Source of the DNA: Cycas panzhihuaensis
Taxonomy: Eukaryota > Plantae > Cycadophyta
Assembly: GCA_023213395.1 (NCBI GenBank)
Contig: CM041465.1
Coordinates: 182,659,741-182,723,740, forward strand
DNA: 64,000 bases
Reading direction: 5' to 3'
In this document: positions 6,301 through 36,550 of the stretch, in pieces
Position numbering within the stretch: the stretch's first letter is position 1
Layout of the letters: each line of letters opens with the position of its first letter
The notes under the pieces: model-generated
The model's input: only the letters and a program-made list of their open reading frames with translations
Told to the model about the DNA's origin: nothing
The model's database searches: none
Translations under genes and position numbers: made by a program

Positions 6301-7470
6301 GAACGAAGATCTGACAAAATAAGTTTATATGGAACAACCTCCTAGCTTCATAAAAAAGGGCAAAGAAAATTTGGGATGTAGATTAAAGAAGGCACTTTAT
6401 CGTTTGAAGTAGGCTCCACGAGCTTGGTATGATAAATTGGATACTCACCTTAGAGGAAATGGGTTAAGAAGATGCGAGTCTAATCTAAGTTTGTACATAA
6501 AGAGTAGAGGAAAGAATTTGGTCACCATAATCATGTTATATGTTGATGATTTGATTGTCACAGGAAATGATCGTGACGTTATCAAATAGGTGAAACTAGA
6601 AATAAAGGACAAATTTGAAATGTCAAATTTGAGCTCTCTTCACTACTATTTGGGGATTGAAATCAACTAGGAGGATAATGGTATTTTTATTTCTCAGGAA
6701 AAATATTCTAAAACTCTTCTCAGAAGATTCAATATAGAAGAATGCAAACTATGTGCCACTCCCATGAAAACAGGCTGCTTCTTAACAACTGATGAAGAAA
6801 GCAAGAATGCAGATGATACCTTTATCGACAATTGATTGGGAGTCTTATTTATCTTACAACAACCTAACTAGATATTTCATACTTTGTTGGCATAATGTCC
6901 AGATACATGAGTAAGCCTAAAATATCTCATTGGATTGTAGTAGACCACATCTTCAGATATATCACAGGCACTTTGAACCTTGGAGTGAACTACAACAAGG
7001 CTATAGAACCCAAGTTGATCAATTATTGTGACTCACACTGGCAGGTGAGAAGCAAGAAAGAAAGAGTACTTCAAGGTATTGGTTCAACCTAGGATCTACA
7101 ATTATTTCATGGAGTAACAAAAAATAACTTATTGTAGCTCTATCCTCCATAAAGGCTGAATACAAGGTAGTAGTAAATGCAACTTGTGAAATAATATGAC
7201 TCAAATAATTGCTTAAGGATCTAAACCTTGAATATTCAAATGCAACTCAAATCATCTGCGATAGCTAGAGCACCATCAAGATAATAAAGAACCTAGTCTT
7301 CCATGCCTAAACAGAGAATATAGAAGTCCATTATCATTTTATCAAAGAAAAGGTTCAAAGCAAAGAAATTGAACTCCAATACTATAGTAGTGAATTTTAA
7401 TTAGCTTTTATTTTTACTACACCTCTGGAAAAGGACAAATTCTTGCGCTTCAAAAAAATCTTAGAATCAA
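3395..7470 (+). pseudogene. E1 gag-pol, many stops and frameshifts
   Basis: ORF fragments NYSAWRIKMK (gag), ELGDDSTL (protease region), YTPQSNG (integrase), MLYVDDLIVTG (RT), YCDSHW (RNase H start). Confidence 0.9.
5258..5469. mobile_element. Solo LTR inserted in the E1 integrase
   Basis: 212 bp, TGTT...GACA termini, interrupts W-I-E-A-V-K-T. Flanks aagga/aaaca are each one change from an AAGCA TSD. Confidence 0.75.
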
Positions 7471-9453
7471 ATAGAAAGGGTAAAACTTTAAGAGGAGGTG
7501 TTAAAAGTTAATAATTTACTTAAATGCACTTTTAGAGTTCTCTTAGTTAAGCATAACTTATGTTACTAAAAGTTGTTCATAGTGCCTTTTTTGGAAATCT
7601 CTTATTGACTCTCCTTGGAGGCTACTTATATATATGTGTGTGAGACGATCTCACAAGAAATAATGAAAACGACATATATACTATTTTGAATAAGAGTCTG
7701 TTTGTTTTCTAACATGGTTAACTTGACATTGCTTTACAATTTATTGGTAGGGTAAGATTAACATAACTCAGCTTTGCTCATGCTTAGCTCACTCTCTCTA
7801 TTATGGAGTGGACAATTCAAAACATTAATGAATTATAGTTGATCAACAATGACATGAAGTATTGACATTGCAGATTAAAATATAAGTGACCCCTTGCACA
7901 TGCATAATTGGATGCCACAAATAAAATGTTTATTTGGCTATATGCATATTAACTCTCTATTAAATCTTTTTTTGCTACTTTAGGAAAAATAACATTCAAT
8001 TTCACAGTTTTCTACATGACAATGTACATTACTTGGCTTGGCATGCCAAATTGCATTTGATGACTACAAGTAGTAGGAATGCCTTATAGTTATCTTTTGT
8101 GATAAGTGAAGTGATGTCAAATTACTAGGATTTCATGTATTGAAATCATCTCCCACTTATTGTATCGATTTTGAGTCATTTCTTGAGCTCATATAGTCCC
8201 CTTTTCTCATTGTTTTGCAAAGGCAATTGCCTTTATTGTGGTTTTGTAGGGTGTAGATTGGGATAATGGGGATCTTGCCTAGTGTTGTCTCTCACTAGAT
8301 TATAGCACCTTTAAATACCTTGAGAGAGTTGTTATGGTGCATTTACCAACAATTAATTGAATCTGTGCAATTTTGGCATTGGTAGTAATGGGCAAAAGTT
8401 ACACTATCTCAACCTCAAAAGGGGTTGATTTAATAGTTGAATTGTTGTGTCTATCCCATCATGTTATAATCTATTTGCAATTTGTCCACTTCTATAAACT
8501 ATTTGCAACCAATCCCCTATAAATAGAGAACTACATCCAACACTCAAACCAATGTCAGCAGATTAGTTAGGCTCCTTGTTGCAACCATTTCAACTAATGC
8601 TTTTCTTGAAGATATAATTTTAGTTTTACATTTGCCATCACCCTATAGAGGTGATTGTTCAACTTGCAAGTATCACACTATGGAAGAAAGAGGAAATTTT
8701 GTTGTAAAAAATGGTATGCAAAATTTCCCTTTTGGTGTTAAGTGCACGATCCATCTTGTATTTGCATGTAGTTTGGCCTTGTTTTAGTTCTTTCGTAGAG
8801 TTTGTTAGTGTAAATTGATTGTTTTATTCACGCCCAATTCAATGTTGTTTTCAATTCATTTGTTGAGTTTCTTAACATAAAACTTGGCTAACCCTGCGAG
8901 TTTCCTTGATGAGTTCTAATATGATTTCAATTGAGAATTTGTTTAACCGTTCACTCCTCATCTATATGGATAGTCTCTATTGACAAAGAATGGTCAATGG
9001 TTAATAACTGGTGTCAAGTGATGGTTGATAGCGGTCGACTTACATTTCACTTCAAGAATCAAAGTATGGTTGCAGGGGAAGGAGCCAATTCAAAAAAAAT
9101 AATGAAAAAGAGGGAAAGGGGAATCCTATTAGGCTATATGACTTGACCATATAGGACATTATATGTTGTGTCACATGTGATATATGTATATGTTGATGTT
9201 TATCATCACATGTCACATTAAGATTTTTGCATGAATTACATGTGAACACTGTTGATCCTTGTTGTGGTTGTTCTTATTGCCCCTTGAAACATGAAGTTTT
9301 AGAATGCAATGATGATGGTTGATGTGCTTTAATTGAATAACTCATTGATAGTGTTGAGATATTAACATTAGATTGGAGAAGAACTTGTTTCTTTATTATG
9401 AGAGATGAACTCTTTATATACAAAATGAAATTGTAACCACCATGTATTTGGCT

Positions 9454-9471
9454 GACACGTGGCATACACGT
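9454..9471. promoter_or_regulatory. ABRE/G-box (GACACGTGGC) plus second ACGT core in the E2 LTR (copy at 14402-14419)
   Basis: Matches the ACGTGGC ABRE consensus in both LTR copies. Function untested. Confidence 0.4.
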
Positions 9472-9559
9472 CTATGTTACATGAGAAGGTGTTTTATATG
9501 ACAAATCTTCCTAGATCAAATATTATATTCTGACACCCTCTCTTAATATTTTATCTTTT

Positions 9560-12500
9560 TAATCCTATTTGTCTCTAAGGGTTTGAATTTATCCTTGCTA
9601 TGTGGCTTTGTTAATATATCTATAATCTGTGCATTTGTTGAGCAGTATATTAGATCAATTTCTTCGCTTTTGACATTTCCCTGTATGAAGTGATGATACA
9701 CTTCAATGTGCTTTGTTCGAGCATGAAGAACTAGGTTTCTAGTTAGGTTGATGGCACTCTAATTGTCACAGAACAACGTTGTTGACTCCTTTTGGTGTTG
9801 ATCCAAATATGTCAAAAGTTGTCTTAGCCAAACTACTTCACATGCTGCACTAACAACTAACTTATATTCAACTTCTGTGGATGAGAGAGCAATTGTAGGT
9901 TGTATTTTGTTACTTCAGGAATTTGTTATTAATCTAAGAAAAAAAAAAACTTACTTATTGATCTTCTTTTTTCTTTGTCTGCTGCCCAATCTGAATCATA
10001 ATATCTAATTAATTTGTTTGATTTCAATCTAGGATATGTGAGTTTCAGATTAGTTGTTCCTTTTAGATATCTAAGTATTCTTTTTGTAGCTTTCTAATGT
10101 TTCACCTTTAGATCTTGCATACACCTGGAAACTAGACTTATTGAATATGATATATCAGGTTTAATTGTTGTTAGGTATATTAGGCTACCAATCAATTACC
10201 TATACAAAGTTTCATTGACTCCAGCTTCCCTTTCATCTGGGGTGAGATCACAATTGATTTCCATTGGTATTATGCAAATGTTGCTCTCTTCCATTTTAAA
10301 TTTTGTTAACAGATTTTTTGATATATCTACTTTGAGACAAGGAGATTGAATCTTGTTTTCGATCAACCTCTATTCCAGATAGTAGTTCAGAAGTCTCAAA
10401 TCTGTCATTTCAAAACCTTTTTCTATTTGAATACTTATATTATCTACAGACTTTGCATCACTACCTGTAAGTATCATATTATCCACATATACTACAATGA
10501 TAGTGATTAATTCTTATCTTCTCTTTGCATATAAACTACAGTCAGAGCTGCACCTGTGAAAGCCATTCTAGATAAGGTACTTATCTAACTTGGTGTACCA
10601 GGTTCTTGGAGCTTGTTTTAGCCTATATAATAATTTTTTAAAGTCTACAAACAATATTTTTTTGCTTGTTTTGCACATACCCTTCTAGTTGTTTCATGTA
10701 AACTTCTTCTTTGAGTTCACCATTTAGAAAAGTGCTCCACATTTAATTGATAGACTTTCCAATTATGTTGAGCTGCTAATGCAATTACTACTCTCACAGT
10801 GTCCAATTCAGCTATTAGTGAGAATGTTTCTTCATAGCCTATTCCAGTAGTCTGTGTATAGCCTTTAACTACTAACCTAGCCTTGTACTTGTTTATTTTG
10901 CCATCATCATTCTCCTTTATCTTGTATACCCATTTGCATTTGACTACTGACTTGCTATTAGGTAATTCTACCAATTCCCATGTTTGATTTTTGGAGATCA
11001 ATTGCATCTTTGCATCCATTGCAGCTTGCCAATCCTTATGTCCTTTTGCTTCTTCAAATGATTGTGACTCTATGTTAGTGAACAAGGCTTGATGCTTTTG
11101 ATGTCTTGTCCTATGTATATATATCTCTTTTACCTTCTTTGATAGTCTTGAGATACTATTTTGGTATTCTTTTTTCCTTCTTTCTTTCTTTCTCAATGAC
11201 AGAGTTTTTGGAAGATGCTTCTTCTTCTTCAGTGGGTGGACTTTCATGAGACTATGAAGCCCTCTCTGATTCATCTGTTTCCATATCCTCAGAAGCAATC
11301 CTAGAGACTTCTTCTGTAGGAGGCTCTTCTTGAGATATTCCCTATGGTGTTTCTTCAAGTATTTGTTAAATTGAAGAATCTTTCATAAGATCATCTTCAT
11401 TAAATACCACATCTCTACTTATATAGATCTTATTTGTTCTAGGATCTATACATTTATAGGCCTTGGAGTTCTTGCTATAGCTAATCATTACACATTCTAT
11501 ACTTTTTGAGTCAAGTTTAGATCTTTTCTTATTTAGGATATGAACAAATAATTGACTTCCAAAAATATTCAAATTACTTACATCTGGTTTGATGCCTATC
11601 TAGGCTTCTTCAGGAGTAATTTGATCCAAGGCCCTTGTAGAACTCTAGTTTATGAGATAGTCAGTTGTGCAAACTGCCTCTGTCGAGTATGGTTTTGAGA
11701 CATTCCTTTCTTCGATCATACTGTGAGCCATTTCCATAATCGTCTTGTTTTTACGTTCTACAACTCTATTGGATTGAGGTGTATATGGAATTGTTATCTG
11801 TTTATGTATTCCATGATCCTTATAGTAATTCAAAAGATCTTTCAAGATGTATTCTCCTCCACCATCTAATATGATATACTTTATTTTAAGTCTAGATTCT
11901 AATTCAACTTCAGCCTTAAATTCTTTACATTTTTCAAAAATCTCAGATTTACTGTAGAGAAAGTAAATCCAAGTTTTCCTAGAAAAGTCATCAATGAATA
12001 TTAAGAAGTATCTAACACCATTTATTAAATGAGGAGTAAGAGGACCACATAAGTCAATATGTATCAGTTCTAACTTGTTTTGAGCTCGTCGTTCATTTGT
12101 CTTAAAAGGGAAACGATGTTGTTTTCCAAGCAAATGACTTTGCAAACAAAGTGTTGAAATAAGATATTAGGAAGACCATCAAACATTTTTTATTTTTGCA
12201 ATTGAGCTAACCTATTAGAGGAAATATGCCCTTACTTCAAATTCCACAATTTATTATTATCAGTATTGACTGCAATACATGATTTTACATCTTTATTAGT
12301 TGTTACAAGATTAGAAAGTAACATATACAAGTCATTACTTTCTATTCCTTTAGCAATTATCACACTATTTTTTTTCATGTGCAAGATGTAACAGTGTCCT
12401 TTTTTATCAAAAGCTGTCCTCAACTTTTTCTTTCCTAACTGTGAAATTCTTTTTCAACCTAGGTACAAAAAACACATTACCAATTTTCTATACAACACCT

Positions 12501-13640
12501 TTTATTTTGGCTGCTATGGTTCTGAACTTTTTGATGTTTAATGGGTACTTATCCCCTAACTCAATAGATTTGTTAGAAGAGTAGGGTTTTAGGGATTCAA
12601 ATAAGTCCTCATGTCCTGTCATATGCCTTGATGCTCTAGAGTCAATGTACCACACTTCTTCGTCCTTGAGATTGCATGTGAGTGCAACAATAAATGCTAT
12701 TTCTTCACCTTCATCATCTTGTTCTTTGCTAAAATTTCCTGCAGGACATTTCCCAATTTGGATTTCAGCTCTTCTCTGTGAGCATTGATAGGGATAATGC
12801 CCAAATTGGCTGCAGTGATAACAAACGTTAAAAGACTTGCAATTGCTTGAAAAGCGCTATGATTTCCTGTAGTTGAAGCATACCCTTACTTCTCTGGGTA
12901 GAACGCTACGTCCTCATCCTCGACTCTCTTACCGCCTTCCACATAATGGACTTCTGATATCTGAGCCTTGTGCATGACTGCGAACTTGCCCCCTTCCTCT
13001 GGGTCCAAGATGGAGTTTGGTTATAAATGCATCTTCTACCTCTGCTACAACTTCGTATCGTTTATTTCTTTGTTCATGTCTCAATAACAAGCCTATTAAG
13101 GCATCAAGAGTCATTGTATTAATTTGATCATTATTGGTTATTGTGTTAATTGTGACATCAAACAATTTCAGAAAGTTGCTTGCTATCATTTCTACAATCT
13201 CCTATTCGGATATATTAGCTTCAACACTCAACAGATCATTTCTGATTGATACAACCTTGTGAATGAAGTTCGAAATTGTCTTTGTATCTTCTATGTATAA
13301 CTTAAACAACTCTTCTTTGAGGACTATGATTCTAGCCTGATTCTTTTGGCTATACATATTTTCAAACATTTTTTAGGTTGTTGAAGAAGAATTTAGTTTC
13401 TGAACATAGATGAGAAGAGGATAAAAACAAATAGTTTCAACACAAGTACCCCTGCATTATCTCTTTCTTCCCAATTGGTTTAAGCAATACTAACAACTAC
13501 AAACTTTGTTTCAATCTTGATGGCTATATTCTAAGTATTTTTTACCCTTACTGGGGTTTCCACTTTAATTTTCCAAATATGGTAGTTGGAATCAGTCAGT
13601 TTATCTTGTTCTATGAGTGTTAGAATTAAAGAGGCGATGA
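9560..13640 (-). pseudogene. E2 gag-pol
   Basis: ORFs with LIHIDLCGP and FIDDFSRKTW (integrase), TWELVELP...KYKARLV (RT), plus gag fragments. Confidence 0.9.
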
Positions 13641-14656
13641 TCAAATCAGAAGACAAAGGGTTTCAATGACTGATCGTATGACTATACTGATTTTCATTCG
13701 ATTTGCAGGTGTATGAACTAAACAAGAAAGTATCTCAAAATAAAGATCTTTTTTAGAGCAATTTGAATATGTGAAAATTTTTGAAGGAATCCTTCAAATC
13801 TAAGAGAAAGCAGCCTTGAAAACCATAGAGAGGCGATTAGGGTTTTATGTAAAATGACTTGAATCTTGAAAGATTTGCATTCAATCTTCTTAGAAAAAGT
13901 ATTAATGGGAACTTAATGATAGAGGGAAGAAATTTTGACAGAAAATACTTGGATTTAGAGACAAATTTGAAAGAAAATTGCATTTCCTTTCTCAATCCCG
14001 CATGACTGCAAATAAGGCAAAATGTCCTCTAAAACATACTCCAATCTCTTTGATGCAGAAGGAAGAAATGTCAAGGACGCTGAGATTTATTTGTTGGTGA
14101 ATTTTGATGAAAAATTAAGTACTTGAAATTTTCTGTCAGTACGGCTGTACAATCCCATACGACCGTTGTGTATCCCTTCTTTAATTAGTATTCTCTTCCT
14201 TGATTTGATAATAGATGTCTTTGTCTAGCACAAACGCTTATGGTTTCCTTCAACAGGAATTTCCTTTGTCAAATAGGCTAGGTTTCCTGCTCTTATACCA
14301 TGTTGAAATATTAACACAGATTGAAGAAGAACTTGTTTCTTTATTATGAGAGATGAACTCTGTATATACAAAATGAAATTGTAACCAACATGTATTTAGC
14401 TAACACGTGGCATACACGTCTATGTTACATGAGAAGGTGTTTTATATAACACTTAATCTTCCTAGATAAAACATTATATTCTAACATATAGGTTTTTCTT
14501 TTCTTTATTCTTTTATTCTCATTTTTGCACATTTTGGCTTTTTAAAGGGCTGTTTTCCCTTTTGCACATTCTTTCTTTTGTTTGAAGGTCTATTGTATAG
14601 GGGACTTTACCTCTTTTCTCTATTAAGTATATAGTTGTCTCATGTTAAGGGGGGAT

Positions 14657-16679: not shown

Positions 16680-17420
16680 TTCCTTTTGCAATTTTGCAAG
16701 CCAGTAGTTGAGTCTTTGTTGCATTTTCACCATTTGTGAAAATGTGAAAAGATATTAAATTACATCCCTCTTGTAATCTTGTAAATGAATGTCTCAATTC
16801 CATGACATAAAATACACCTTTGTGAAAACGTAAAGCAAAAAGCATATAAGACGCTTGTACTGGGTCGAATTACCATATGGTTAATTTTGGAGTTTTGCAA
16901 TTCTTTCTCTAGGGTAATGATGACTTTTGTCTCAGTTGCAAAAATGCAAGAAGATGAGACCTTCATTTCGCATCTTCAAGGTTTGTCATTTGAATAACCT
17001 TCATCTTTTATTCATTTGTAAAGATGAGAAAAGACTTATCATGAGCCTTTCCTTGTATTTTGCAATTTTAGGAATCAATAATCTTGATTTACTGAGTTGA
17101 ATAAGTTTTTGCGAAAACTTGCAAAGAGAAGATATATATGATGACTCTTGTAATGGACCCTATCATTTTGTCTTTCTCTTTGCAATTTCATATTTCATCA
17201 GTCTTCATCGCCTTTGTCGCATTTGTGCAAACATGAAAAGATACAAGACACTATCTCTTTCACAATTTCACATATTATCATTTGAGTAGTTGTTGCTTAG
17301 CCATTTGCAAAGATGCTACAAGGTATAAGATTGTTCCTTCTTTGTCTTTCGTATTCTTGGAGATGAATGATTTTTTGGCTTTCCTTTCTTCACCCACTTC
17401 CAAAATTGCAAAGTTTCATT
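16680..17420. repeat. Degenerate tandem repeat, ~80-115 bp units
   Basis: Recurring catttg(t/c)...aaa.atg..aaagat unit near 16731, 16817, 16933, 17013, 17107, 17220, 17302. Confidence 0.45.
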
Positions 17421-18608
17421 TGTAGGAGGAATGAAACCCCATCTAAAAGCATAAAGATCATGTTAAGAGTTAATGTTTAATATGTAAATGATGTAGTCCT
17501 AAAGTATTATGTAATGGTCTATAGGCTAGTGTTAATGTTATTGTCTAAGGTCCAATAGGGGTGTTAAGCGATGTCATTAAGCAAGTTTATATGGAACACC
17601 GAATTAGTAGGTGAGGCAATTGTTCTTTGTGGTTGGAGGAGTTAATAAGAAGTATAAATATGTATTCATTCCCCTTCAATAATGATCAATACAATAAGGT
17701 TTGATACCCATGGTTTAACATGGTATTAGAGTAGGGTTGTTAGTAGAAGTTAATGTTGTTGACGTTCATTTATGGTGAAGATTCTGTAATCTATTCGTTC
17801 TGTGATGTCACCTTTCTGTTCATTGCATGGAGCACGCATTACAACTTTGTTCTACATCATCACCTGTGTAGTTCATGGCTCAGTTCGTAGTAGCTATGCG
17901 TGAAGCACATTACCTTCATGGCACTCCTCATCTGTGACCTCTTACAAGAAGACATAACTCTGTCGTGTGAAGATTGCATGTCTGCATATCATTCCTATAT
18001 ATGCCTTCAATTTGATATACTGCGTTGGTAATCTACGATTGTTGCATGAAAACTGTCATGAATTGTAGAAGAGCATCCGATTGCATCGTCAAATCATTTT
18101 TTGTCTAAATTGACACACTTTAGCAATTACACTAAGAGGATTATGTCTGGTACAAAAAGTAGTCCAAGGGTCTAAGCAAGATTATGATGGTTGTATGAAC
18201 TATAGACGTTCATGTGAAGAAGATTTTCCGTTGTGCCTCCATAATTTTGCTCGTATGAAGATGGGGTTTCTTTCTCTCCCGCCATAATTGCCATTCTTGA
18301 TTTGTGTAAGAGCACACTGAAGGATTGTTAAAAACGTTTTTAGGGTACGAGATTTGACTCTTTCAGGATTAAATATGTGTATCAATTGGCTAAGGAAAGA
18401 AGGTGGGTTTGTTTAAGGTTTACCCTAAATTCATTGTGCATTATGAAGATAGAGTTCTAGAATCTTACAAAGGGAAACTCCATAGCATTTATTTGTGCAT
18501 GGCCGTATGACATGCTTTCTTAATTGTTTCTCAGAAGTCTAGTCTTTGTCTATTTGAGACATCGCCAGTTTATATCCTAGGGTGTTGTCAATCCACAGAG
18601 GAGATTTC

Positions 18609-18804
18609 ATGATAATACAATATGCTCTAGTGGCCCGTGGTTCTGTGGCATTAGTAGAGTTCAGTACGGCTTCTACCAATGGAAGCACAATTGCTCATCA
18701 AATATTGAAAAATTTTCAACAGTGATGACAATCACATCTCTTATTCACAGGAACGATATGTTTTCCATGTCAAGAGAACCAATGGATTGAAGGCTTTGTG
18801 TTTG
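18609..18804 (+). pseudogene. VAMP71: Captured fragment of a VAMP71-type R-SNARE (longin domain N-terminus)
   Basis: MIIQYALVARGSVALVEFSTASTNGSTIAHQILK then, after a frameshift, SDDNHISYSQERYVFHVKRTNGLKALCL. This closely resembles plant VAMP71 N-termini (MAILYALVARG..EF...STNASTIA.QILEK...SYSQDRY.FHVKRTDGLTVLCM). Confidence 0.9.
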
Positions 18805-20299
18805 ATCGCTACCACAGATAGACATGCAAGCTAACAGTGAGAAGGTTGTGAGCCACAAAGGCAAAAAGCATAGGAAGCTCTAGAGGTAGAGGAGAAGAAT
18901 GCCAGTGTTAAACAAGTTTACTAAAATTAGAGAGACCACAACTACAAGTTATAAATGAGGAGTGAAAACCCTTCTGAGGATGTTACAAGCTCTCACCAAT
19001 TGCATGGTTACAACAAAAACATCTTTATTAGTTGTGCCCAAATTTTGAATAAGAACAATTAATAGCGGAAGATCAAAGCAGTTCAAAAAATTCAGAACTA
19101 GGCATAGCCTTTAATATAGTTTACATTCTTGAGTTTGGGGTCAATGATGTAACCTAGAGCTAACTTTGTTGGTGATGAAGTTTGCAGTGTTCAACTATCG
19201 TGGATAGGTTTGAAGACTAGAAGTTAGCCTGCATTCAGATGTGAGAACAGAACACGCATACATGAGAACAAGTGGAGATTTGGAGAGTTGAAGGGTCATT
19301 AAATTCAAAGGCATCTATTATCAAGATACAGATCTTCATAATGACGACTAGATCTTAGATAAGTAATATGAATCTATACTAAATACCCTCTTTCCTTGTT
19401 GTGTATTTCTGGAGACTTTTAATGACTACTAAATAGTTATTGAATGCACTTATCCATAGAAAGAACATGTGAACGAAAAGTGCTTCCAATGTTAAAAACA
19501 TTTTTACTCTTATTCTGAAAGGAAAATAGTTAGTGAAATGGAGGGAAGTGTTAGGCAGTAAATGTGGGAAGTCATGCAAAGCATTAGAATTCATGAAATT
19601 CAGCCATCTCATGAATGAGAAGGCTCAGTTTTTGTATGTGGGTTAGCAAAGAGATTGCTTAGGTTTTCTTTGGCTACCTGGGCTTGTCAATTATAAATTT
19701 CTCTAATGCAAATCTACTAGAGGATCACTATCTTAGGTTTATTGGTGAATTAATCATACAAAAGGCATCTTCTCAATTTGAAAAGAAGTAGCACCTATAG
19801 ATTCTCCGCTTCAACAACATAGTTAGGAGTGAAGGGATTTCCATCCATATAAAGGGCACAAAAGGTGCACTAATTAGTCGTTACAAACAATATTGTCACA
19901 TAGGTTTCTGAGAACTTTTTTATGTAGCCCACTAAAGTCTTTTGTGATAGAGAATCCTCAGTCCAAGTGAGTGCACTCAATAGTGGGTGAAATTTTACAG
20001 GGAAATCACAAGGTGGATGTAGTCAAAATGGGGCATACTCAATCTTTTGTTAATGGAAAACAATTATCTAGAATGGTAAAAAGACATGAAGGCTTGGTTT
20101 ATGGGAGATTGTTTCAGATGGATGCACTAGTTCATCACTAGAGTTATAATAGAAGATGTATCAACATTTCAATGGGTTTCCTTCATGTCTACAAATAAAG
20201 GTTGCATAAAATTTTGTTATCTTTTTTGTCTGACTCAAAATACTACTTGCAAGGCATATAAAACATGGAATTTCATTTAAAAAAAAAAAAAATTCAAAG

Positions 20300-21764
20300 A
20301 TGAATCAATAATCAGTGGATGAAGGTAAAGACATTGAAAATGTAGCTAGCCCAAAGGAAGAAGTGCAGGTTACATACAGTAACCTAACAAAGAATCAGAA
20401 AAAGAAGTTGAAGATAAAAGCTAAAAAGGCAAATGTAAGTAATTAGACTAATTATAGTAAGAATGAATCTCACATAGATTCATCTAATGTTTTTTGTGAT
20501 AAGAAAGGTGAAAAGGTTTATGAACCTATTTCTGAGAATAAGTCCTTTGTTGATGAAGAAATATGTGAATATCATAATTATTGTGACAAGATAATTTCTG
20601 CAGATGAACTTATTTATGATTCTATTAAAGTAACAGATGAGTCTAATGATTTGACTCTAGATCCTTTCTTAGAAGCTAAGAAAAAAGAAAAACATGAAGA
20701 ACTGAAGACTGAGAAGACAGAGCTTGGAATAATTTGTAAGCATGAAAATTTTGAAGTTGATTTCAGACAGCCTTATTTATAGGTGATACAATATAGAGAC
20801 ATAACTATCTTAATAGAAAATTTAAGTAGCATTATCATAATTTTCATTTATAGATTTATTGCTAAATTTCAATTGATATTAGGTCACATAGTTGTATGTT
20901 TATACACATAATTCTTTACAGTTTCATTCAATATAGTAACATTTTCTGTTCTTGATATTGAAGAAGTTCAAGTTGTGTTGACATATGCAGCAAAGGCACT
21001 AGAAAATTCCTTCGAAAAAAAGAAAGATACTTTGATAGAAATTGGAATGGTGCTTGGCCAGAATCCTGTAATAGAATTTGTTTATACAAATTGCTATATG
21101 ATTGTGACAGGTTATTTAATCATAAAGTTAAATCATGTTATGGTGATATGTTGCCTTCATGTGGCCATAACGGTTGTTGGAAAGCTTATACTTGTAATTG
21201 TGATGGAAATTCTCTTTTATGTTTATCATTTTAATAGCTTCCTTGGATGATAAGAAAAAAACAAAATAGTTAGCTAAAAATTTTATTGAACTAGGGTCAA
21301 TACCAATACTCATGATAACATGGAAGAAATCATCATCCCTCATTCCTTTTCAAGAGATATTTTATTGGCTTGTTTTTTCAGCATATCTAAAGAAGTTAAC
21401 CATAGTGACAAAACTCATACTTGTTGGTTTAAAAGCAAATAAGGAGAAATCCTTTTTATTCTTCTTTAAGGAAATGTTGGAGCCCAAATCATGTGTTGTC
21501 ACTTTTGATCTTGAAGATAATGATCATAAAAAAGATCACACTTGGAGTATGATCTCTCAAATACAGTTGTAGTCACTAAGCAAAAAACAAGAGATAACAG
21601 AACAAGTGATCCAATAAAGATGATTCATAAAAATAAAAAAGCGTTACTACATTCTAAAATCAACTAAAGATGAAGATCAAGCTCCTAACATTGTCTTCAG
21701 GAAGATACCTAGATTCAAATGTTGCAAATTCAAAAATAACACCTCACGTCAACTCATGTGTTAG
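20300..21764 (+). pseudogene. Decayed ORF of unknown function in E3
   Basis: One frame runs 20300-21250 with only four internal TAA/TAG stops in ~317 codons, then continues after a likely frameshift to ~21764. Charged N-half, hydrophobic C-half. Confidence 0.5.
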
Positions 21765-22345
21765 TTTTCGTTAGTCCTTAGTATTTAGTGTTATGATGTC
21801 TTTAGTATTCAGTTTTTTGTTATCTTAACATTAAACGCTTAAGGAGGGGTTTAAGAGTTAATGTTTAATGTGTCAATGACGTAGTCCCAAAGTATTATGT
21901 AAATAGTCTATAGGCTAGTGTTAATGTTATTGTCTAAAGTCCAATAAGGGTGTTAAGTGATGTCATTAAGCAAGTTTATATGTAACACCTAATTAATAGG
22001 TGAGGTGGTTGTTCTTTGTGGTTGGAGGACTTAATGACAAGTTCAAGTATAAATATGTATTCATTACCCTTCAATAATGATCAATACAATAAGGTTTGGT
22101 ACCCATGTTTTAATAGTTCACAAGTTAAACATTTTTATGAGAAAAACATCCCCTTTATGTACCATGTTTTGGGCAAAGTCCTAAGACTACTATCCCTTCT
22201 TGATTTATTTTCTTTACTATGTACATTCACTATCACTATGTTTTTTTTTTCTATTTACACCCCTTGAGCAAAGAGAAAAAAGGGGGTAACAGGTACCATC
22301 AACAAACTAGCTTGTTTATGATTATATCATATCGTAGAGGGATAT

Positions 22346-25300
22346 TCTGAAAATTTAAGAATCGAAATTAGAACCAAACATTAGTGAACATAGGTTTATT
22401 CGATAGAATTAGTCTACCTTTAAAATAAAATTTCATTAATTAAGGAAAAATTTACATTAAAAAAGAAATATATTATACATATACATATACAAATAGGATT
22501 AGTAACGGTCCACACACGAACTTGTAATTGCCTTGACACGTGTCAGGAGCCTATTAAGGGCTTTATAACTCCTAATGACCCACTTATCACCCTTGTCCTA
22601 TATGAACATTAATCTAACACCCCTCCTCAATGTTCATATCATCGAATTTAATGCCGATACAATATTTAAATTCATCAAATTTATCCCTAAGTAAAGGTTT
22701 TGTGAAAATACTAGTTAACTGATCCTTTGTTGGTTTGCACAAAACTTTAGCCTCTCCATTCTAAATTTGATCCCAGATGAAATGATAATGCACCTTGATA
22801 TGTTGGTGTGACCATGGAACACTAGATTCTTGACAATCTTCAAAGTATTTTGATTGTCACAGTATAATGTAGTTGCTTCATATTTATGTAGTGCCAAATC
22901 ACCAAGCATCTATCTCAACCAAATGGCCTTACAAGTTGTTACCATAACAATTTTATACTTTACTTTAGTAAAAGATAAAACAACATTAAGCTATATTTTA
23001 CTACTCTAAGTAACAATAATAAAACCTAAACTAAACAATATTCTAAAGTGGACTATCTACTATCCTCACATTCAACCTAATCAAAATATGAAGATGTGTT
23101 AGCTAGAAATTATCGTTATGGCTAAACTCTAATCCAAAATGTACTATCCCCTGCAAATATCTTAGGATCCTCTTCACAAGTTTTCAATGGCTTAACTTTG
23201 GTTGAATGATGAATCTTAATACCATGCCATCTGCAAAAGAAATATCAAGCCTAGTAGTACTTAAGTAGATTAAACTACCAACTAGCTATATGAGCATTGT
23301 GTTATCTACTCGCTTATCATCATCAAAAGTTGTCAATTTTAAACCTGTTTCTATTGGGGCATGTATAGGTTTAACTTCTTCCATTTTGAATTTCTTCATA
23401 ATTTCCTATACATATTTAGTTTGTAAAATGTAGATTTTTCCAGGCTTCTGCCATACTTCTACTCCTAAAAAGTAAGGGAGCAACCAAAAATTTGTTATCT
23501 TGAATGCCTTTTTAAAATCATTTTTCAAGCCTTCAACCATTGAGGTGTCATTGCTTGTGATTGGAAGATTATTTACATGCAGCATTACAAGGATGATTGA
23601 ATTTCCTTCAACATTGATATATAGGTTTGGATCAACTTACGACCTCTCAAACTCGTCCAAAAAATATTGATTGATCTTAGAATACTAGGCTTTTGGAGCT
23701 GGCTTGAGATCATACAAAGTGTTCTTTAAACAACATACCAAATGTTCTTTGCCATTAGAAATATAAGTAGGTGGTTGTTCTATATTGGCTTCTTATGCAA
23801 GATCTCCATTAAGGAAAGTACTTTTGACATCAAGTTGGTGTAACTGCTATTTGAACTAAGCAACTATCATCAATATTAATATAATCATTACAATCTTTGC
23901 TATTGGAGTAAATGTCTCCTAATAATCTATCCTCAATGACACGAGTTTTAGCATCCATTATTGTCTTCACTTCTGCTCTTAGTTGGACCCCTCAAAACTT
24001 GAAAGCCCATCAGCATTTGACACATCTACCATCAATGCAAAATTGATCATATCAGGTCTCATCCTCAATTTCTATTTTTCTTCTTTCTTGGGCAACTTAG
24101 CTTCTGCCATAGTTTTCAAATACCATTTAGGGAACTTCTTGGTAGGTGGAATGACCTTAGGCTACATCTCAGATTGTGATTCCTTAGCACCTTCATACTC
24201 ATCCTTCTCAACTTCTTCCATCTTTTTAACTTCTTCCTCCTCCTTTGGCTCAGTCTTTAGCTTGATGAACTGCTATTTCGAAGAACTAAATTCAAGTTAT
24301 TCCTCAATCTGCTTCCCTTTACCTCACTAAATCTTCAAAGTATCCAAGTCCTAATCTTGATTTGAAACTTATTTATCAACCTCTTCAAAGTTGATGTCCT
24401 ACTTGGTTACCAATTCATATACCAATATACTTTGTTCTTTTCATTGTATCCCATGACGATGCACTTGGAACTTTTTATTATTAAATTTCTAGCATTTCCC
24501 TTTGGTAACATGCATATATGTTGCACTTTCAAAGATTTTAAGATGACTTATTATTGGTTGACATCCAGAACATGCTTCTTTAAGTGTCTTATTTTATACA
24601 ACTTTTGTTACACTCTTGTTAGTTAGGTACACTTTTGTACAAACAACTTTAGCCCAAATGATATTTGAGAGGTTCTTCACCTTCATCATTGATTTAGCCT
24701 TCTCGACTAATATCTTGTTTATTCTTTTAGCTACTCCATTTTGTTGTAGGATATATGTTCTTATTAAGTAATTTATACTATGGTCTTTGCAAAACTGAAT
24801 AAAGGCATTGGAGGCATATTCTTCCCCATTATTTGTTCTAAATATCTTAACCCCTTGATCAATTTCATTCACTGCCTTTGCCTTAAATTTTCTGAATATG
24901 TCAAATGCCTAGGATTTCTCCTTTATGAGATATACTCAAACTTTTTTGGAAAAATTATCAATAAAGGTCAAGAAATATCTTGCACCTTTGAGTGAATTGG
25001 TTGGCATAGGATCATATATGTCTGAGTTGATCAGGCTTAACTTTTCAGTTGCCCTCTAAGCCTTGCCTCTAGGAAACTTCTTCTTATGTTGCTTCTTGTA
25101 AATATAGGGTTCACAAATATCGTTTTTTGTCTTAAACTTTGAGAAGCCATGTATTATGTTCAAGTTATTCATCAAATGTAGGCCAGGGAAGTGCAAATGG
25201 CCCAATCTTTCACACCACAATTGAATTTTATTTAACATATTTGTAATCAAAGATGCTCTTTGGCTTATTGACTTACCTAAGAGCCTATAAAGATGGTTTT

Positions 25301-27250
25301 CTGTAACATCTTCTATGCCTGTTTTCCCCTTTACAATCATTAATAATGGCGTTTTCATCTTAAAAGAGAACACTCATCCTTTTGTCCTCTATCTAACTAA
25401 TAGAAATAAGGTTCATTGTCAATTTAGCCATGTACAAAACATCCTCCATATAATAATCATCTCTTCTTGAGTTATAATTATGACCTCTCGTATGCCCTTG
25501 ATAGTTAAAATTTTATTATCTCCTAGAATAATAATGTCTTATAGCTTCCCACATATTCCTAAATCATCAAAGCCTACCTGTCATATGTTTGGAAGTGCTT
25601 GAACAGATGTACCAAAAATTATCAAACTTTATTTGATGTATTGCTATATTCCTTTGGTTAGCTTCATTTTACAAATGTTGTTGACCAACCTACAACAATC
25701 TATAGTTTTTCCTAAGGTGGCATGGCTTGTTATAGTTATGGTAGGTTTTATGAGGTTGTTTTTTAGAGTAGGGGAATAAACATTTTCCACCCATTATGAT
25801 GTGCAATAACAAAATTACACTATAAAACACATAACAAACTATAACACGGTGGGCATAAAATAGCCTTGACACAACACGCCCATATTTATTTAAAATTAAA
25901 ATTTGTGGGGTCCTTAGTCACTACATAAAGTGTCAAAAAAATAATAAAATCCATGGTTAGCATGTAGGCAATCAGAATCTCATCATATGACCATGCTCAG
26001 TACAAAAAGCATGAAAAAGTACAATAAAAAGGTAGCCTTCATTTTTACAAAAGGCTCCTCAGTGACCCAAAAAGACCTTTAGCACATTACGCACAACATC
26101 ATTAGGGCCTAACACATAGGGGTTAAAGTACAAATCTTAAACTCAAGTTAAAAATAGATTAATGCAATTTTAACATTATGAAAAAAAGAAAAAAAAAAGA
26201 TTAAAGTATATGCAACAAACTTTATTTGCATGTGCTCTACATTACACAATGAATCTTTGTCGAATTGACGATTTGAGTTCCCCTTTGTTCAACTTATCAT
26301 TTCGACTGGTTCGTTCAACTGTGCAAAAAGCCCACCATCATCATTGATCTTAGTTCGTACATTTATACAGTTTGCATGATATTGGCAATCATGATGCTCG
26401 TTTGTAAGGGGAAAATTCACTTAGTGTGACTTTGTTAATGCTATGTTGTGTCCTTTTATTTCTTGTTTTCTTGAGTGATGCCCATTTACAATTTGCGTAG
26501 GTCTCCATATGATATTTATCTCTACAGGTCCTTCAAGCTATCCTTACAAACTTGTGACATTTGAGTAAATGTATGGATTTGCTATTGTATTGAGTCATCT
26601 CAACTGGGTCCCAGGGTCCATTTGTTTTAGTCAAATGAAGTTAAGCTCTGATTTTGAGTGTTGGTATTCATACTACAACCGCCTCAAACATGGTTTCCTA
26701 GGATTCTTAAGTTGTTTCAAGTGAGGCCCTTTAATGCTTGTTTGGACTTAGTTAATGTAGTGCCAAGTTGAAGAACATAGAGACTCATAAGGTTTCTATA
26801 CAGTAGTGATGTGCTACCCTTAACATGTGCTAATATAAGGCAAGGCAATATTCCTCCAAAAGACACACTGTCTAACATTTCCATAAAATGTTTTTTTTTT
26901 TTTTTTCTTTTCAACACTGAATACTTGATAGATAAATTAATTCCATAGCATACAATTGTGAATTTTTGAATTGAATTCACCTACAAATTGATAAAACAAA
27001 ACTTGTTTGGCTCCACATGTCACAAGTTTACAGTTAATTAATAACTAGTGATAAATCTAACTCTAATACCACATGAAAGCTTAAAAATCAAAATTGGAAC
27101 CAAATATAAATGAACATAGGTATATCTAGTAGAATTATTCTACTTTCAAACTAAATTTTTATTCATTAAGAATGAATCTACCTCAAAAAGAAAAAAGTAC
27201 AAAAAAAATATATATATATATATACTATACATATACATATACAAGTAGGG
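22346..27250 (-). mobile_element. Ty1/copia element E4 with truncated 5' LTR and missing/replaced gag
   Basis: 3' LTR 22346-22619 with PPT cccctcct, PBS rc (actctaatacca) 27060-27071, 5' LTR similarity 27072-~27250. RNase H/RT 22640-23930, integrase 24400-25050, zinc knuckle remnant ~25700-25760. Confidence 0.82.
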
Positions 27251-28619: not shown

Positions 28620-31600
28620 AGTTAAGACGAGAACATGTGGACAGAAATCCTTCCTTAATTATAGGGAAGAGATAATCTCTCAATATATACAGCAGAGTCA
28701 TAAGCATGGGCCAATGCATGTAGGCCATATGTCAGATAGATGCAAAGAGGGGGTTACATCATATAATCCTTATCTTACTTAGGACCCCTTAAAAAATAGA
28801 ACATAAAAATAAAACATTAATATAACACCCCCTCTTAATATTTTATCCTTTGTTTTTTATTTCTAACTTTTCCTTCAAAATTTAGAACTTAGCCTTTAAT
28901 AAGGGTTTTGTAAATACATCCACAAGTTGCTCATTACTGGTGCAATTTGTAAGTCTATTTCCCTTATTTGAACTTTTCTTTGATAAAACGGTAGTGCACT
29001 TCAATGTGTTTGGTCCTTGTATAGATACATGATTTTTTTATTTATTTGATAACACTTTGGTTATCACAAAAAATAAGAGTAGTTTGATGTTGACTTTGTT
29101 TCAGATCTTTGAAAAGTTATCTTATCCATATTACTTCACAAGTGGCACTTACTACAACTTTGTATTCTACTTTTATAGATGACATGGCTATAATAACATG
29201 TTTTTTGTTGTTCTAGAATGTGATAATTGACCTAAGAGAGAAGCAGTAACCTGAAGTAGATTTTTTCTCTTATTGATCTCTAGCTCAGTCCGAATCACTG
29301 TATCCAGTTAATTTACAAGAACTTGTATTGATATAAATTAATTCTAGAGTTGGAGTATTTTTTATATATCTCAATATCCTTTTTACTACATTCAAGTGTG
29401 ACACTTTTGGTGTATGCATATATCCTGAAAGTACCCTGATTAAATAAGAGATATTAAGTTTGGTAGCAATTAGATAAATAAGGCTACCAATAAGTTACTT
29501 GTACAAAGTTTTATTTACCTCTTATCCATCTTTATCAATAGTTAGCATACATTCTAATTTCATTAGAGTAGTAGTAGCAATACAATGTTCTATCCTAATT
29601 AAAAAAAAAAAGAATTTTTGGCATATTTTGATTGAGAAATGAAGATAGAGTCTATCTTTTACTTTAATTCAATTCCAAGATAATAATATAATGCACCCAT
29701 GTCTATTATTTCAAATACATATTTTATTTGCACTTTTATCCAATTGATTATGTCTTGATCACTCCTAGTAATTATCATGTCATCTATATAAACCACAATT
29801 ATGGTGATCAAGTCATTGCCCATTTTCTTAATATAAAGAATTAGATCTTATTTACACTTAACAAAACCTTTTTATTTGAGATGTAAGCCTAACTTCATAT
29901 ACCATACTCGTGGTGCCTGTTTCAGCCCATATAGTTCCTTCTTTAATCTATAAATAGGATACTCTTCACCTCCTTTTATGTATCCAAGAGGTTGTTCCAT
30001 ATATAATTCTTTGCCTAGATCCTTGTTTAAAAAGGCACGTTTCACATCCATTTGTATAATATTCCATCTGAAATGTGTTGCCATGGCAATGATTGTCTTA
30101 ATAGTTATCAATTTTGCCATTAGAGAGAGGTTTCTTCATAATCAATACCAGTAGTTTGACTATATCCTTTTGTAGCTAATCTAGCTTTGTATTTTTTAAT
30201 GCTTCCATCATATTTTCCTTTAATTTTATACACCCATCTGCATACAACAATGAGATTACTTCGGGTAGTGAGATTAGTTTCCAAGTCTTATTTTTTTCTA
30301 TGATACCCATTTCAATGACCATAGCTTTTTACAACTCCGAGTCTTTACGCACTTTGTCATAACTTTGTGGTTCAACAAAATAAATCAATGCCTGATGTCT
30401 TTAGAATCTTGTCCTATATTTAAAGAGATTTCCCTTTGATTCTTTAGTAGTTTTCGAATACCATTTTGGTAACTTATTTCTATTTAGACTTGATTTTTCT
30501 TTTCATTATTCCTAGTCTACTCTATATCTATAAGTTGATTGCTAGACTCTTCTTCTTCTTGGGGTTTATTGGAGGTATTTTCTTCGAAAGATATTCTATT
30601 GGAATTATCCAATATTTCTTGTTAAATAATTTTTGTTTTTGAAGCTTGATCACTATTAGTTAATCCTTTATTAAACCCTTCATCAAAGATTAAATCTTTG
30701 TTGGCATAGATTTTGTTTGTTTTTACATTTATGCAGTGATAAAATTTAGATTTATTACTACAACTAATCATTATACACTGAATGCTTTTATCATTTATCT
30801 TTGTTCTTTTTTAATCTAGAATATGAAAATAAGTTATACTTCTAAACATTTTTATATGACTTACATCTGGCTTTCTTCCTGACCAAGCTTCTTTTGGACT
30901 AACCTTACTAAGAATTTGTGTGGGACTTCAACTTATAAGATACATTTTTGTATTGATAGTTTTTTTCTAATAAATATTTGGTACTATTTTTTCTTGAGCA
31001 TACACCAAGCCATCTCTGTTATTGTTCTATTTATTCTCTCTACGACTCCATTCAATTTGGGGGGTATATGATGTAGTGAGTTGTCATTAGGTTTTATTTA
31101 ATTTGTAGAAATGATAGAAGTTATTTGTGATGTACTCTCCTCCTCCATTGGTCCTAAGAGTTTTAATTTTGTAGCCACTTTCTAACTTTGCTTATACTTT
31201 GAATTCTTTAAACACATTTAATACTTTTGATTTGCTGAAGACAAAGTATACTCATGTTTTTTTAGAGAAGTCATCAATAAACGTGAAAAAGTACCTGGAC
31301 CATTAATGGAGTTTGGCGTGATTGGCCCACATAAGTATGAGCAAATAATTCAAGTCTTTCTTTTGTCCTCCATGTGCTTTCTTGGAATTGAACTCTGTGT
31401 TGTTTTCTTAGCATACAACTTTTGCAAATAGATAAGTTAAGCACCATATTATGTAATCCTTCTACCATATTAAATTTCTTTAACATTTCTAACTATCTCT
31501 TTGCAATGTGTCTATATCTAGAATGCCCAATTTTATTATGAGAATTATCAGTAGCAAAATTTTATATAGGAGAACATGGGATAGGGCATAGATCAATTTA

Positions 31601-32899
31601 CTCCTTCCATAATTATAATTTTAAATTGTTTCATATCATATAGGAAACATTTTTCATTCTCATAAAAAATAATCAAAGCTTCTTTTTGCTCAGTTGTGAT
31701 ATAGAGAGTAGATTTTTCTTTAAACTAAGAACAAACAACACATTGCCAATTTTTTGAATTTTATTAGTAACTTTTATAACAATTATTATTTTGCCTTTTA
31801 TCTATAAAGGAAAATTATCTTCAAGTTCCATTATTTGGCTATAACTATATGATTGAAGAGTCTTGAACCAATCCATTCTTTCTGACATATGGTTTGAAGC
31901 TTTCAAGTCTATGAATCAATCATCATTCTTTTGAGTAGATGAAGCCAACATAGTGATGAAAGTAGTTTCTTCTTTTTCTTCTTCTTTGCATTATTTACTG
32001 TTAAATTTTTTTTCTTTCTTTTCCTTGTAGATTTTCGCTCTTTTTTATGGACAACTATTGGCAAAGTGTTCGTATCTTCTATAATAATAATAGGTTGGAG
32101 GAACATAATACTTATAATTATTAGGAAGATGTCCTCTTCTATCACAATGATAATAGGGTTTGGATTCTGTTGATGTGTGCCTACCTCGTGCATCATTGAA
32201 TCTTTCTATTGATGTAGACTAACCTCCTCATCTCTCATTGAATCTTCCTCTTATAACTCTTTCTCTTCCTCTTAAGGTGCTCTTGGGTTGTCCACTACCA
32301 TCTAACTATAACCTTGAAAGAAACATTTTTTCAAAGTTTGTCTTCTCATTGTACCATTTTATTCCCATTTCTTGCTATAATAAGTGCCCACATAAGGTAT
32401 CAAACAACATATTAGTAGCCTAGCCTTCTACGGTAAGAGTATTGACAATATTGTTAAAGGATTTTGACAAACTGTTGAGGATTAGCCTAACAATTTTTTT
32501 AACAGACAATGTTTCTCTAGTAGATGTAAGATTGTCTTTGGCTTTGACTATTTTAATGATAAAATTTTGAACCGATTCTCCTTCTCTCAGATAAATTCAA
32601 TACAACTATTCTCTAAGGGAGATGATTTGGGCTTCATTTTTTTGACCACATAGAGCTTCTAATATTTTCCAAGCTTCAACAAAAGAATTTACTTCTTTTT
32701 TTTTTATATGGTTTAAGAAGATGAAGGGATTAAAAGGGGACCCCGACCCCATTATAGATCAGCTAGGTTAGCCTCTTAGACCTACCATGACAAGCCCATG
32801 ACTTAGCTCCAGAATACAAAAATAAACCTGACCAATTCTACTAACCCTACCTTGCCATGACAAGCTTGATGATTAGCTATAAGAACCAGAATAGAATAT

Positions 32900-35800: not shown

Positions 35801-36550
35801 TATTAGCTTGAAATGAAAGGGGGCTTCTATATGTCTCTTGCTGTCAGCAAACCCCAACACTAAAGGAGAGTGGTCTGATATTGACTTTGGCAAAGCTTCC
35901 AGAGTAATATTATTATACTAGCTAGCCCAAGCATAATTTATTAGAACTTTATCAAGTCTAACCTAAATATGGTGAGCTCCCAACCTTCTGTTGGACTAAG
36001 TGAACTTTGGATCTCTAAGGGGAACATTCATCATGCCCCCCTTCTGCATAAATTTCCTCTAGTCTGCCATGCTATTTGCCTAGCCCTCCTAACCCCCTTT
36101 CTTTTCTTCAAGGGATAAAGCCGTGTTAAAGTCTCTAACTATCATCTAAGGACCCTTCCATTCTTTGTGGGCGTCCAACATCCTACCCTACAAACTTTTC
36201 CTCCCTTCTTGAGTTAAGGGAGTATGCATGTTTGAAACCAACCATTTGAGATTAGATTTTCTACAGGTCAACTAGCTAGATATAAAATGGTCCTATAAGA
36301 TACAAACCTCTCCCTCCCATTTTCTGGCATTCCACATGATAGCCATATCACTCGAGCATCCACACTCATCTGATGCAATCATCTTAACTCCCATCCACAT
36401 TTTGATCTTTATTTTATCTCTATTATCTACTTCTAATTTGGTCTCTTAGAGTAAAAGAATATCTAGATCGAAGTGAGATCGAAGATCTCTCACTAATCTA
36501 TATTTTGATGGGGAATTTATACTTTCTATATTCCAGGAGGCGAGTTTCAT
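32900..36550 (-). pseudogene. LINE ORF2: AP endonuclease, RT, RNase H
   Basis: Starts MKLASWNI...ETKLE (APE), includes SDHSPL, KAPSPDGFP, YRPISQCNV, RKLAGWKG.LLS, HLVSWEKV.LPK.AGGL, and RNase H motifs VIMEGDSLNAI and YREGNEVADNLAN. Confidence 0.88.

What the first reader, a model, noticed from the sequence alone, without database searches (positions are those of the whole stretch)
17461..22115. Gene-capturing non-autonomous LTR element carrying a host VAMP71 (R-SNARE) 5' fragment
Seen: intact-looking cis signals (paired ~260-bp LTRs, iMet PBS, PPT, TSD gatca/gttca) surround 4.1 kb with no recognisable gag, integrase core or RT. About 65 codons matching the longin N-terminus of plant VAMP71 start at their own ATG (18609), in sense orientation, roughly where gag would begin. 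Known: LTR elements can transduce host gene fragments, and VAMP71s are vacuolar R-SNAREs. Inference: because the TSD flanks the whole unit, the chimera may have retrotransposed as a package. It could be a family that spreads VAMP71 fragments and yields siRNAs against the parent gene.
Basis: partly seen in the sequence, partly recalled or inferred. Interest (0 to 1): 0.78.

Follow-up and report, generated by a model that had tools for sequence, protein, structure and literature searches.

The report
Retrotransposon carrying stitched host RNA scraps
An old, broken plant jumping gene carries a dead piece of the VAMP71 gene fused to short pieces of up to four other likely host transcripts, probably stitched together by slips of reverse transcriptase and likely copied as one package a few times; it is a well-supported new example of a known gene-capture process.

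Summary
LTRs 17461-17720 and ~21850-22115 are 92% alike, with a PBS, a PPT and a 4-of-5 TSD. The VAMP71 piece is real (E 3e-17) but frameshifted and decayed.

The LTRs and the 3' 1.8 kb (which holds a decayed ORF of no known family) are about 100-140 times deeper in four genomic runs than the 2.3 kb behind the PBS. That low-copy stretch matches five different contigs of one likely RNA run. VAMP71 (18497-18804, with 5' UTR) joins its neighbour through a 5-nt overlap, and that neighbour lacks a likely intron. Other contigs about 86% alike carry the same fusion, and the cargo is more diverged than the LTR pair. So the chimera likely predates this insertion and was copied a few times.

Best reading: LTR-mediated retroposition by template switching (Bs1 type). 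It is not a VAMP71-spreading family, and siRNA action is untested and unlikely. The scan noted three similar mosaics elsewhere in this genome. New member of a known kind; interest 0.38.

The parts
17456..17460 (+). left TSD copy (GATCA)
   Evidence: sequence; empty-site joint 17460>22122 in 4 of 4 runs
17461..17720 (+). 5' LTR, 260 bp, high-copy
17721..17732 (+). PBS-like site (iMet type, one mismatch; consensus recalled)
17736..20027 (+). low-copy insert (cargo) between the PBS and the family's 3' part; 770 of 2292 bp assigned to RNA-matched pieces, the rest unassigned
   Evidence: depth tables and loose ends at 17735 and 20045
18099..18170 (+). piece A: internal 72 nt of a 2892-nt contig of the likely RNA run; gene not identified
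   Evidence: record 17, 7 differences, loose ends on both sides
18264..18501 (.). piece B: UTR-like end of a 1589-nt contig; lacks about 191 letters present in a single-copy-depth DNA contig (likely intron); orientation not determined
   Evidence: record 18 (18287-18501, 32 of 215 differ, no gap); X4 record 20 and joint 18386>18398 in 3 of 4 runs; stops in all six frames
18497..18501 (+). 5-nt overlap (GCATG) where piece B ends and the VAMP71 piece begins
   Evidence: records 18 and 19; chance about 0.007 for one junction
18497..18804 (+). VAMP71 piece in sense: part of the 5' UTR (18497-18608, 56 letters shorter than the parent contig) plus the first 66 codons, frameshifted near 18708
   Evidence: record 19 (1377-nt contig)
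18866..18941 (.). piece D: 76 nt matching a 247-nt contig of the likely RNA run; not identified
   Evidence: record 20, 15 differences (weakest match, 80%)
19560..19640 (.). piece E: 81 nt matching the end of a 707-nt low-depth contig; lies in a moderately repeated stretch, may be TE-derived
   Evidence: record 21, 11 differences, depth 4.6
20028..21849 (+). high-copy 3' internal region of the family; its start has a copia-gag-like look by eye only
   Evidence: depth 490-4740 over 20161-21780; no Pfam support
20300..21250 (+). decayed ORF, 317 codons with 4 internal stops, no known family
   Evidence: 5 stops (one terminal) against 40 and 44 in the other frames, 0 of 5000 shuffles; relatives P0004-P0006 are unnamed
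21841..21849 (+). polypurine tract
   Evidence: sequence
21850..22115 (+). 3' LTR, 266 bp
22116..22120 (+). right TSD copy (GTTCA)
   Evidence: sequence

Best explanation
This is a decayed copy of a high-copy LTR family with no detectable pol gene, whose stretch behind the primer-binding site is a low-copy mosaic of pieces matching several likely host transcripts, VAMP71 among them, probably joined by reverse-transcriptase template switches and likely re-transposed as one unit a few times. Shown: the element's borders, the depth contrast, the five matches to separate contigs, the 5-nt overlap at one junction, the frameshift, and diverged contigs carrying the same fusion. Inferred: host mRNAs were co-packaged with the element's RNA in particles made by an autonomous helper; RT jumped between templates at short shared words; the product kept its LTRs, PBS and PPT, so a helper could move it again; it then decayed neutrally under methylation-type mutation.
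For: (1) Mosaic: 5 of 5 contigs laid from run X19 match separate short pieces at 80-90% and run on into unlike sequence. X19 has zero depth on the ends of the laid stretch where the DNA run reaches 274-523, so it behaves like RNA. (2) RNA origin: piece B has no gap against the X19 contig, while a DNA contig that also stops at 18501 has 202 letters in place of 11 at 18386-18398. This joint is seen in X1, X4, X5 and X3. (3) Microhomology: pieces B and VAMP71 overlap by 5 nt (about 0.007 by chance). Tan et al. report a median of 6 bp (PMC5131818, passages). (4) The VAMP piece starts inside the 5' UTR (96 letters of the parent contig are missing) and ends after codon 66 of about 220. (5) Package movement: X1 record 3 (70 of 517 differ), X5 record 26 (77 of about 546) and X5 record 28 (32 of 244) bridge the B/VAMP joint; X2 record 12 (37 of 278) bridges the VAMP 3' end. 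Cargo against RNA contigs differs at 84 of 612 letters, against 21 of 260 between the LTRs (p 0.02). (6) Neutral decay: a frameshift, 4 amino-acid changes among the 7 codons with listed differences, and 32 of 39 listed transitions run AT-ward in the window.
Against: X19 is RNA only by the tool's guess, and its contigs are unstranded. Only one junction has both partners defined; two thirds of the insert (1522 of 2292 bp) has no assigned source. The splice letters of the presumed intron were not shown, so it could be another kind of indel. No listed diverged contig links the cargo to an LTR (the nearest is X2 record 15, 19764-20261, 95%), so the siblings could be segmental duplicates. LTR-pair divergence can be lowered by gene conversion, and LTR and cargo differ in CpG content, so the timing argument is moderate (p about 0.02). 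Only about half of each DNA run was read and 32 pieces were listed per call. No helper element was identified.
Confidence: 0.75

Rival explanations
1. The mosaic was built at DNA level (gap repair, or a Helitron or Pack-type element) and landed in, or was taken up by, the LTR element afterwards.
For: Two thirds of the insert is unassigned and could be genomic DNA. All major TE superfamilies capture exons in gymnosperms (PMC13477047 section 12).
Against: Likely intron loss in piece B. A 5-nt overlap rather than a TSD at the one resolved junction. No direct or inverted repeat of 30 nt or more listed inside the insert.
Confidence: 0.12
2. One capture event only: the ~86% copies are old segmental duplicates, or a non-LTR processed chimera that served as donor, and this LTR copy never re-transposed with its cargo.
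For: No listed diverged contig bridges cargo and LTR.
Against: The diverged copies are more distant from this one (13-14%) than its LTRs are from each other (8%) (p 0.015-0.025), so the fusion likely existed before this insertion. A TSD and empty-site joints mark the insertion as a unit.
Confidence: 0.1
3. The element is kept because it regulates VAMP71, through siRNAs or as a chimeric gene.
For: The locus is shared at about 98% by three species labels. In maize, donor genes map more siRNAs, and older captures there did not show less cross-talk (bioRxiv 10.1101/777037, passages).
Against: The frameshift and amino-acid changes; an expected share of perfect 24-mers of about 5%, and a longest clean run of 15 nt between listed differences. 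Sharing among close species is expected of any old insertion.
Confidence: 0.03

Closest known systems
LTR-mediated retroposition by template switching (Tan et al. 2016, PMC5131818; passages read)
   Same: Partial mRNA pieces replace part of the internal region between two LTRs; short shared words at junctions; several parent genes in one chimera; secondary retroposition of the chimera.
   Different: Described there for young animal copies. Here an old plant copy with up to five pieces, a large unassigned remainder, and only one junction resolved.
Maize Bs1 (as described in PMC5131818 and PMC13317346, passages; the primary paper was not held)
   Same: Non-autonomous plant LTR element with pieces of three or more host genes, present in a few copies that share switch points.
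   Different: Bs1 formed a transcribed and translated chimeric ORF. Here no ORF spans the pieces, the cargo includes UTR pieces and sits right behind the PBS, and the backbone belongs to a high-copy family.
Gene-fragment capture by TEs in gymnosperm genomes (PMC13477047; passages and section 12 read)
   Same: Old captures, a bias to first and second exons, hundreds of thousands of cases per conifer genome; 13.68% of capturing TEs carry two or more fragments.
   Different: In the parts read, that survey counts captured exon fragments and does not resolve junction mechanism or PBS-proximal position. The host of this window was not shown here to be a gymnosperm.
LARD / TR-GAG non-autonomous LTR elements (PMC13570524, passages)
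   Same: Longer than 4 kb, no pol, cis signals kept, a fragmentary ORF.
   Different: The family's ORF has no gag match, so TR-GAG membership is not shown. It carries host cargo.

Membership tests
LTR retrotransposon (non-autonomous) | paired LTRs, PBS, PPT, 4-6 bp TSD | tested here: met
   empty-site joints; 3' LTR termini are decayed and the TSD is 4 of 5
LTR retrotransposon (non-autonomous) | no pol domains | tested here: met
   none detected in six frames by Pfam or with 15 retroelement ORFs of the window; sensitivity on decayed frames is low (the same Pfam scan missed the VAMP piece)
Ty1/copia superfamily | PR-IN-RT-RH order or an RT that groups with copia | not testable with these tools
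   no pol is present; short LTRs and an iMet-type PBS are only suggestive (recalled)
TR-GAG | a gag ORF as the only coding domain | tested here: inconclusive
   no Pfam gag hit for the ORF, its start or its relatives; Atlas hits under 0.9; likeness at 20028-20130 is by eye only
LTR-mediated retrocopy (Tan et al.; Bs1 type) | partial host mRNA pieces internal to LTRs | tested here: met
   records 17-21
LTR-mediated retrocopy (Tan et al.; Bs1 type) | intron loss relative to the parent gene | tested here: inconclusive
   about 191 extra letters in a DNA contig at 18386-18398 are absent from the RNA contig and the element; splice letters not shown
LTR-mediated retrocopy (Tan et al.; Bs1 type) | microsimilarity at junctions | tested here: met
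   met at 1 of 1 junction with both partners defined (5 nt); the other junctions are unresolved
LTR-mediated retrocopy (Tan et al.; Bs1 type) | secondary retroposition: several dispersed copies share switch points | tested here: inconclusive
   diverged contigs share the B/VAMP and VAMP-end fusions; their flanks and LTRs were not seen
LTR-mediated retrocopy (Tan et al.; Bs1 type) | transcription from the LTR | not tested
   no run on record as RNA was listed as a holder
plant VAMP71 / VAMP7 R-SNARE (parent gene) | N-terminal longin domain of VAMP7 type | tested here: met
   Pfam Longin only at E 0.017 on the second half
plant VAMP71 / VAMP7 R-SNARE (parent gene) | SNARE motif and transmembrane anchor in one open frame | tested here: not met
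   the element holds only residues 1-66 with a frameshift, so it is a pseudogene fragment, not a family member

The most novel reading that the evidence does not exclude
The stretch right behind the PBS is a reusable cargo bay. In this high-copy pol-less family, and in other LTR families of this genome, members carry different stacks of host RNA pieces there, picked up serially by a capture route tied to the priming site, while the 3' ORF region and LTRs stay constant. This would be a genome-scale, position-specific RNA-shuffling system rather than rare accidents. Hints: family contigs diverge from each other about 3 nt after the PBS (9 contigs in X3, agreement 0.49; two more different ends in X11), and the scan noted three similar mosaics elsewhere in this genome (unchecked).
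Probability: 0.22. Interest if true: 0.65.

Novelty: new member of a known kind. Interest (0 to 1): 0.38.

Why it matters
As it stands, this is a well-resolved plant case of multi-gene LTR retroposition, with a parent contig, a junction overlap, likely intron loss and sibling copies. Plant examples at this resolution are few in the papers read (mainly Bs1), although fragment capture itself is very common in large plant genomes. VAMP71 appears to be incidental. It would matter more if the PBS-proximal position proved systematic: a high-copy family with variable host cargo would let junction rules, RNA packaging bias and capture rates be measured across hundreds of natural events in one genome.

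Tried and rejected
No whole genome is held for this window, so no genome-wide copy table could be made.

Two metagenome scans for family copies gave 0 matches and 2 chance 20-mer matches.

Expression: no RNA holder was listed, and X19 holds no contig 95% or more alike to the element (0 of 5 laid). This is no evidence either way.

Identifying cargo pieces other than VAMP71 failed: Pfam on six frames and on short frames, PDB on six frames and a protein search on 19460-19696. In some searches the hits were weak and not credible (calcineurin E 0.0014 with no passing stretch; HCV E2 on the off-frame of the VAMP piece), and these long-frame searches missed VAMP itself, so they are insensitive.

Family ORF: no Pfam family, Atlas hits 0.88 or lower. 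Its hydrophobic stretches are strong in the window copy (max 2.6) but weak in three relatives (1.5-2.0), so an env-like membrane protein is not supported. A structure prediction of alignment A1 had not finished, so there is no result.

Look-ups of earlier findings by sequence found no look-alikes. No tRNA genes were found.
Full report
Check of the observation. The element runs from 17461 to 22115. Its LTRs align over 260 letters with 21 substitutions (13 transitions, 8 transversions; K2P 0.086). A PBS-like word abuts the 5' LTR at 17721, a purine tract ends at 21849, and the flanking 5-mers match at 4 of 5 places (2.3% of random pairs). The flanks are themselves a moderately repeated sequence, and contigs join 17460 to 22122 without the element in all 4 DNA runs laid, which fixes the borders independently. 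The VAMP piece is real: read with X at its frameshift it hits two plant longin proteins at E 2.9e-17 and 3.8e-13 (2 of 38 candidates) and four VAMP7 structures. tblastn places it at residues 1-34 (18609-18710) and 35-66 (18709-18804) in two frames. No gag or pol domain was detected. The rest of the window is a nest of ordinary copia elements and a LINE. No genome is held. I did not determine the host; an earlier scan note calls this genome a gymnosperm, which I did not test.

Two parts of very different copy number. Laid on four genomic runs from three species labels, the median summed depth was 1409-1770 over 20161-21780 and 10-16 over 17821-19980, a ratio of 99-141. The tool warns that summed depth is no copy number, so I use only the contrast. 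A zoom with run X3 puts the borders at about 17735 and 20045. Behind 17735, nine contigs run on into sequences that agree poorly with each other (0.49); before 20045, nine agree at 0.73. So the LTRs and the 3' 1.8 kb are a high-copy family, and the 2.3 kb behind the PBS is particular to a few copies. The 3' part holds a frame at 20300-21250 with 4 internal stops in 317 codons (0 of 5000 shuffles). Its only relatives among 1.84 billion representatives are unnamed Logan proteins (5 hits at E 0.001 or better, 3 at 1e-10 or better), with no Pfam family. Its role is unknown. A gag-like look at 20028-20130 is my reading by eye and has no statistical support.

The cargo is a mosaic. Run X19, which the tool guesses is RNA, was read whole; 5 contigs were laid, none on the high-copy ends of the stretch. 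They match 18099-18170 (7 of 72 differ), 18287-18501 (32 of 215), 18497-18542 plus 18591-18712 (5 of 46 and 14 of 122; this 1377-nt contig continues as VAMP71 beyond the frameshift), 18866-18941 (15 of 76) and 19560-19640 (11 of 81; low depth, may be TE-derived). Each has unmatched sequence on at least one side. The VAMP71 capture begins inside the 5' UTR, 96 letters short of the contig's end. It has 48 letters where the contig has 104, either an alternative splice form or a deletion, and it ends after codon 66. Piece B ends at 18501 and VAMP71 begins at 18497, a 5-nt overlap (about 0.007 by chance for one junction). It is the only junction with both partners known. A 634-letter DNA contig at single-copy depth matches 18264-18386 and 18398-18501 with 202 letters between and stops at the same place as the RNA contig (X4 record 20; same joint in X1, X5 and X3). 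I read it as the parent gene with an intron that the element lacks; the splice letters were not shown. Together the matched pieces cover 770 of 2292 bp. Searches failed to name any donor except VAMP71.

It likely moved as a package, a few times. Besides contigs about 98% alike (the same locus in species labels A, B and C), there are contigs 86-87% alike that bridge the B/VAMP71 joint: X1 record 3 and X5 records 26 and 28. In X5, three different contigs cover that joint. X2 record 12 bridges the VAMP 3' end (only 32 of some 19,660 pieces were listed, and about half of each run was read). The cargo differs from the RNA contigs at 84 of 612 letters (13.7%) and from siblings at 13-14%, against 8.1% between the LTRs (Fisher p 0.015-0.025). 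Of the listed transitions, 32 of 39 run AT-ward in the window (p 7e-5), so most change arose on the element's side. The fusion therefore likely predates this insertion. Caveats: LTR gene conversion, unequal CpG content, and no listed diverged contig that links cargo to an LTR. Age depends on the rate: about 20 My at 2.2e-9 per site per year (recalled conifer rate) or 3 My at 1.3e-8 (the rate used in 10.1101/777037).

Mechanism. Best supported (0.75): host mRNAs were co-packaged with the element's RNA in helper-made particles, and RT switched templates at short shared words, probably in several rounds. The product kept its cis signals, was re-transposed and then decayed. The anatomy is shown; packaging, switching and helper are inferred. 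Rivals are DNA-level capture (0.12), a single capture with segmental duplicates (0.10) and a regulatory role (0.03). For the last, the longest run between listed differences in the VAMP coding piece is 15 nt and about 5% of 24-mers are expected to match perfectly. Against my reading, the maize study found that older captures did not show less cross-talk. No small-RNA data were available.

Comparison with what is known. The features match those listed by Tan et al. 2016 (PMC5131818, passages): partial mRNAs between LTRs, microsimilarity of median 6 bp, multi-gene chimeras and secondary retroposition. They also match maize Bs1 as described there and in PMC13317346 (passages). Capture is very common in gymnosperms, and 13.68% of capturing TEs hold two or more fragments (PMC13477047, passages and section 12; its supplements were not read). 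Non-autonomous elements of this size form a continuum of LARD and TR-GAG types (PMC13570524, passages). Four literature searches were seen as listings with abstract starts. None of the listed titles described a family with variable PBS-proximal host cargo, but this is no proof that it is unpublished. Earlier scan notes report three similar mosaics in this genome; they are unchecked, share no detected sequence with this element and gave me the mosaic lead, which I then tested.

Verdict. This is a new member of a known kind; interest 0.38. The boldest open reading, a systematic cargo bay behind the PBS, has probability 0.22 and would deserve 0.65.

Noticed in passing
window 20028-21849: High-copy family region with a long decayed ORF whose only relatives are unnamed Logan proteins (P0004-P0006, 31-65% identity). 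It has no Pfam family or confident Atlas match, so the family's own coding part is unclassified.
   Followed up: partly
window 17732-17738: Family contigs diverge from each other within a few letters of the PBS (9 contigs, agreement 0.49, in X3; two other ends in X11), suggesting variable sequence right behind the PBS across the family.
   Followed up: partly
window 18540-18635: A contig of species label E (X11 record 1, 16 of about 96 differ) carries the element's 48-letter UTR stretch, preceded by other, T-rich letters ending at a TAG. This may be an alternative splice acceptor in the VAMP71 5' UTR, which would make the VAMP piece a spliced isoform too.
   Followed up: no
window 19258-19750: Sub-stretch of the cargo with 2-4 times the depth of the rest (28-49 in X3); source unknown, possibly a repeat or a gene-family piece.
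   Followed up: partly
window 21534-21650: Many family contigs have loose ends or skip about 113 letters here, so this is an indel-variable spot of the family.
   Followed up: no
window 17101-17460 and 22121-22500: The flanks are a moderately repeated sequence (depth 12-280) whose other copies lack the element: it inserted into an older repeat.
   Followed up: partly
window 266-700: 3' end of a host RING-H2 finger gene on the + strand (Pfam zf-RING_2 E 1.5e-9), followed by about 63 kb of nested retroelements.
   Followed up: no
window 28647-45151: Three-level nest on the - strand: a copia element whose gag region is interrupted by an L1-type LINE (DUF4283 at 37224-37625, RVT_1 at 34875-35126), itself interrupted by another copia (37665-43192) whose LTRs contain an inverted repeat.
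   Followed up: partly
window 2534-7675, 9370-14486, 22468-27249, 54700-58700, 59280-62900: Further decayed copia-type elements with short LTRs or pol remnants; their leaders were not examined for cargo.
   Followed up: no
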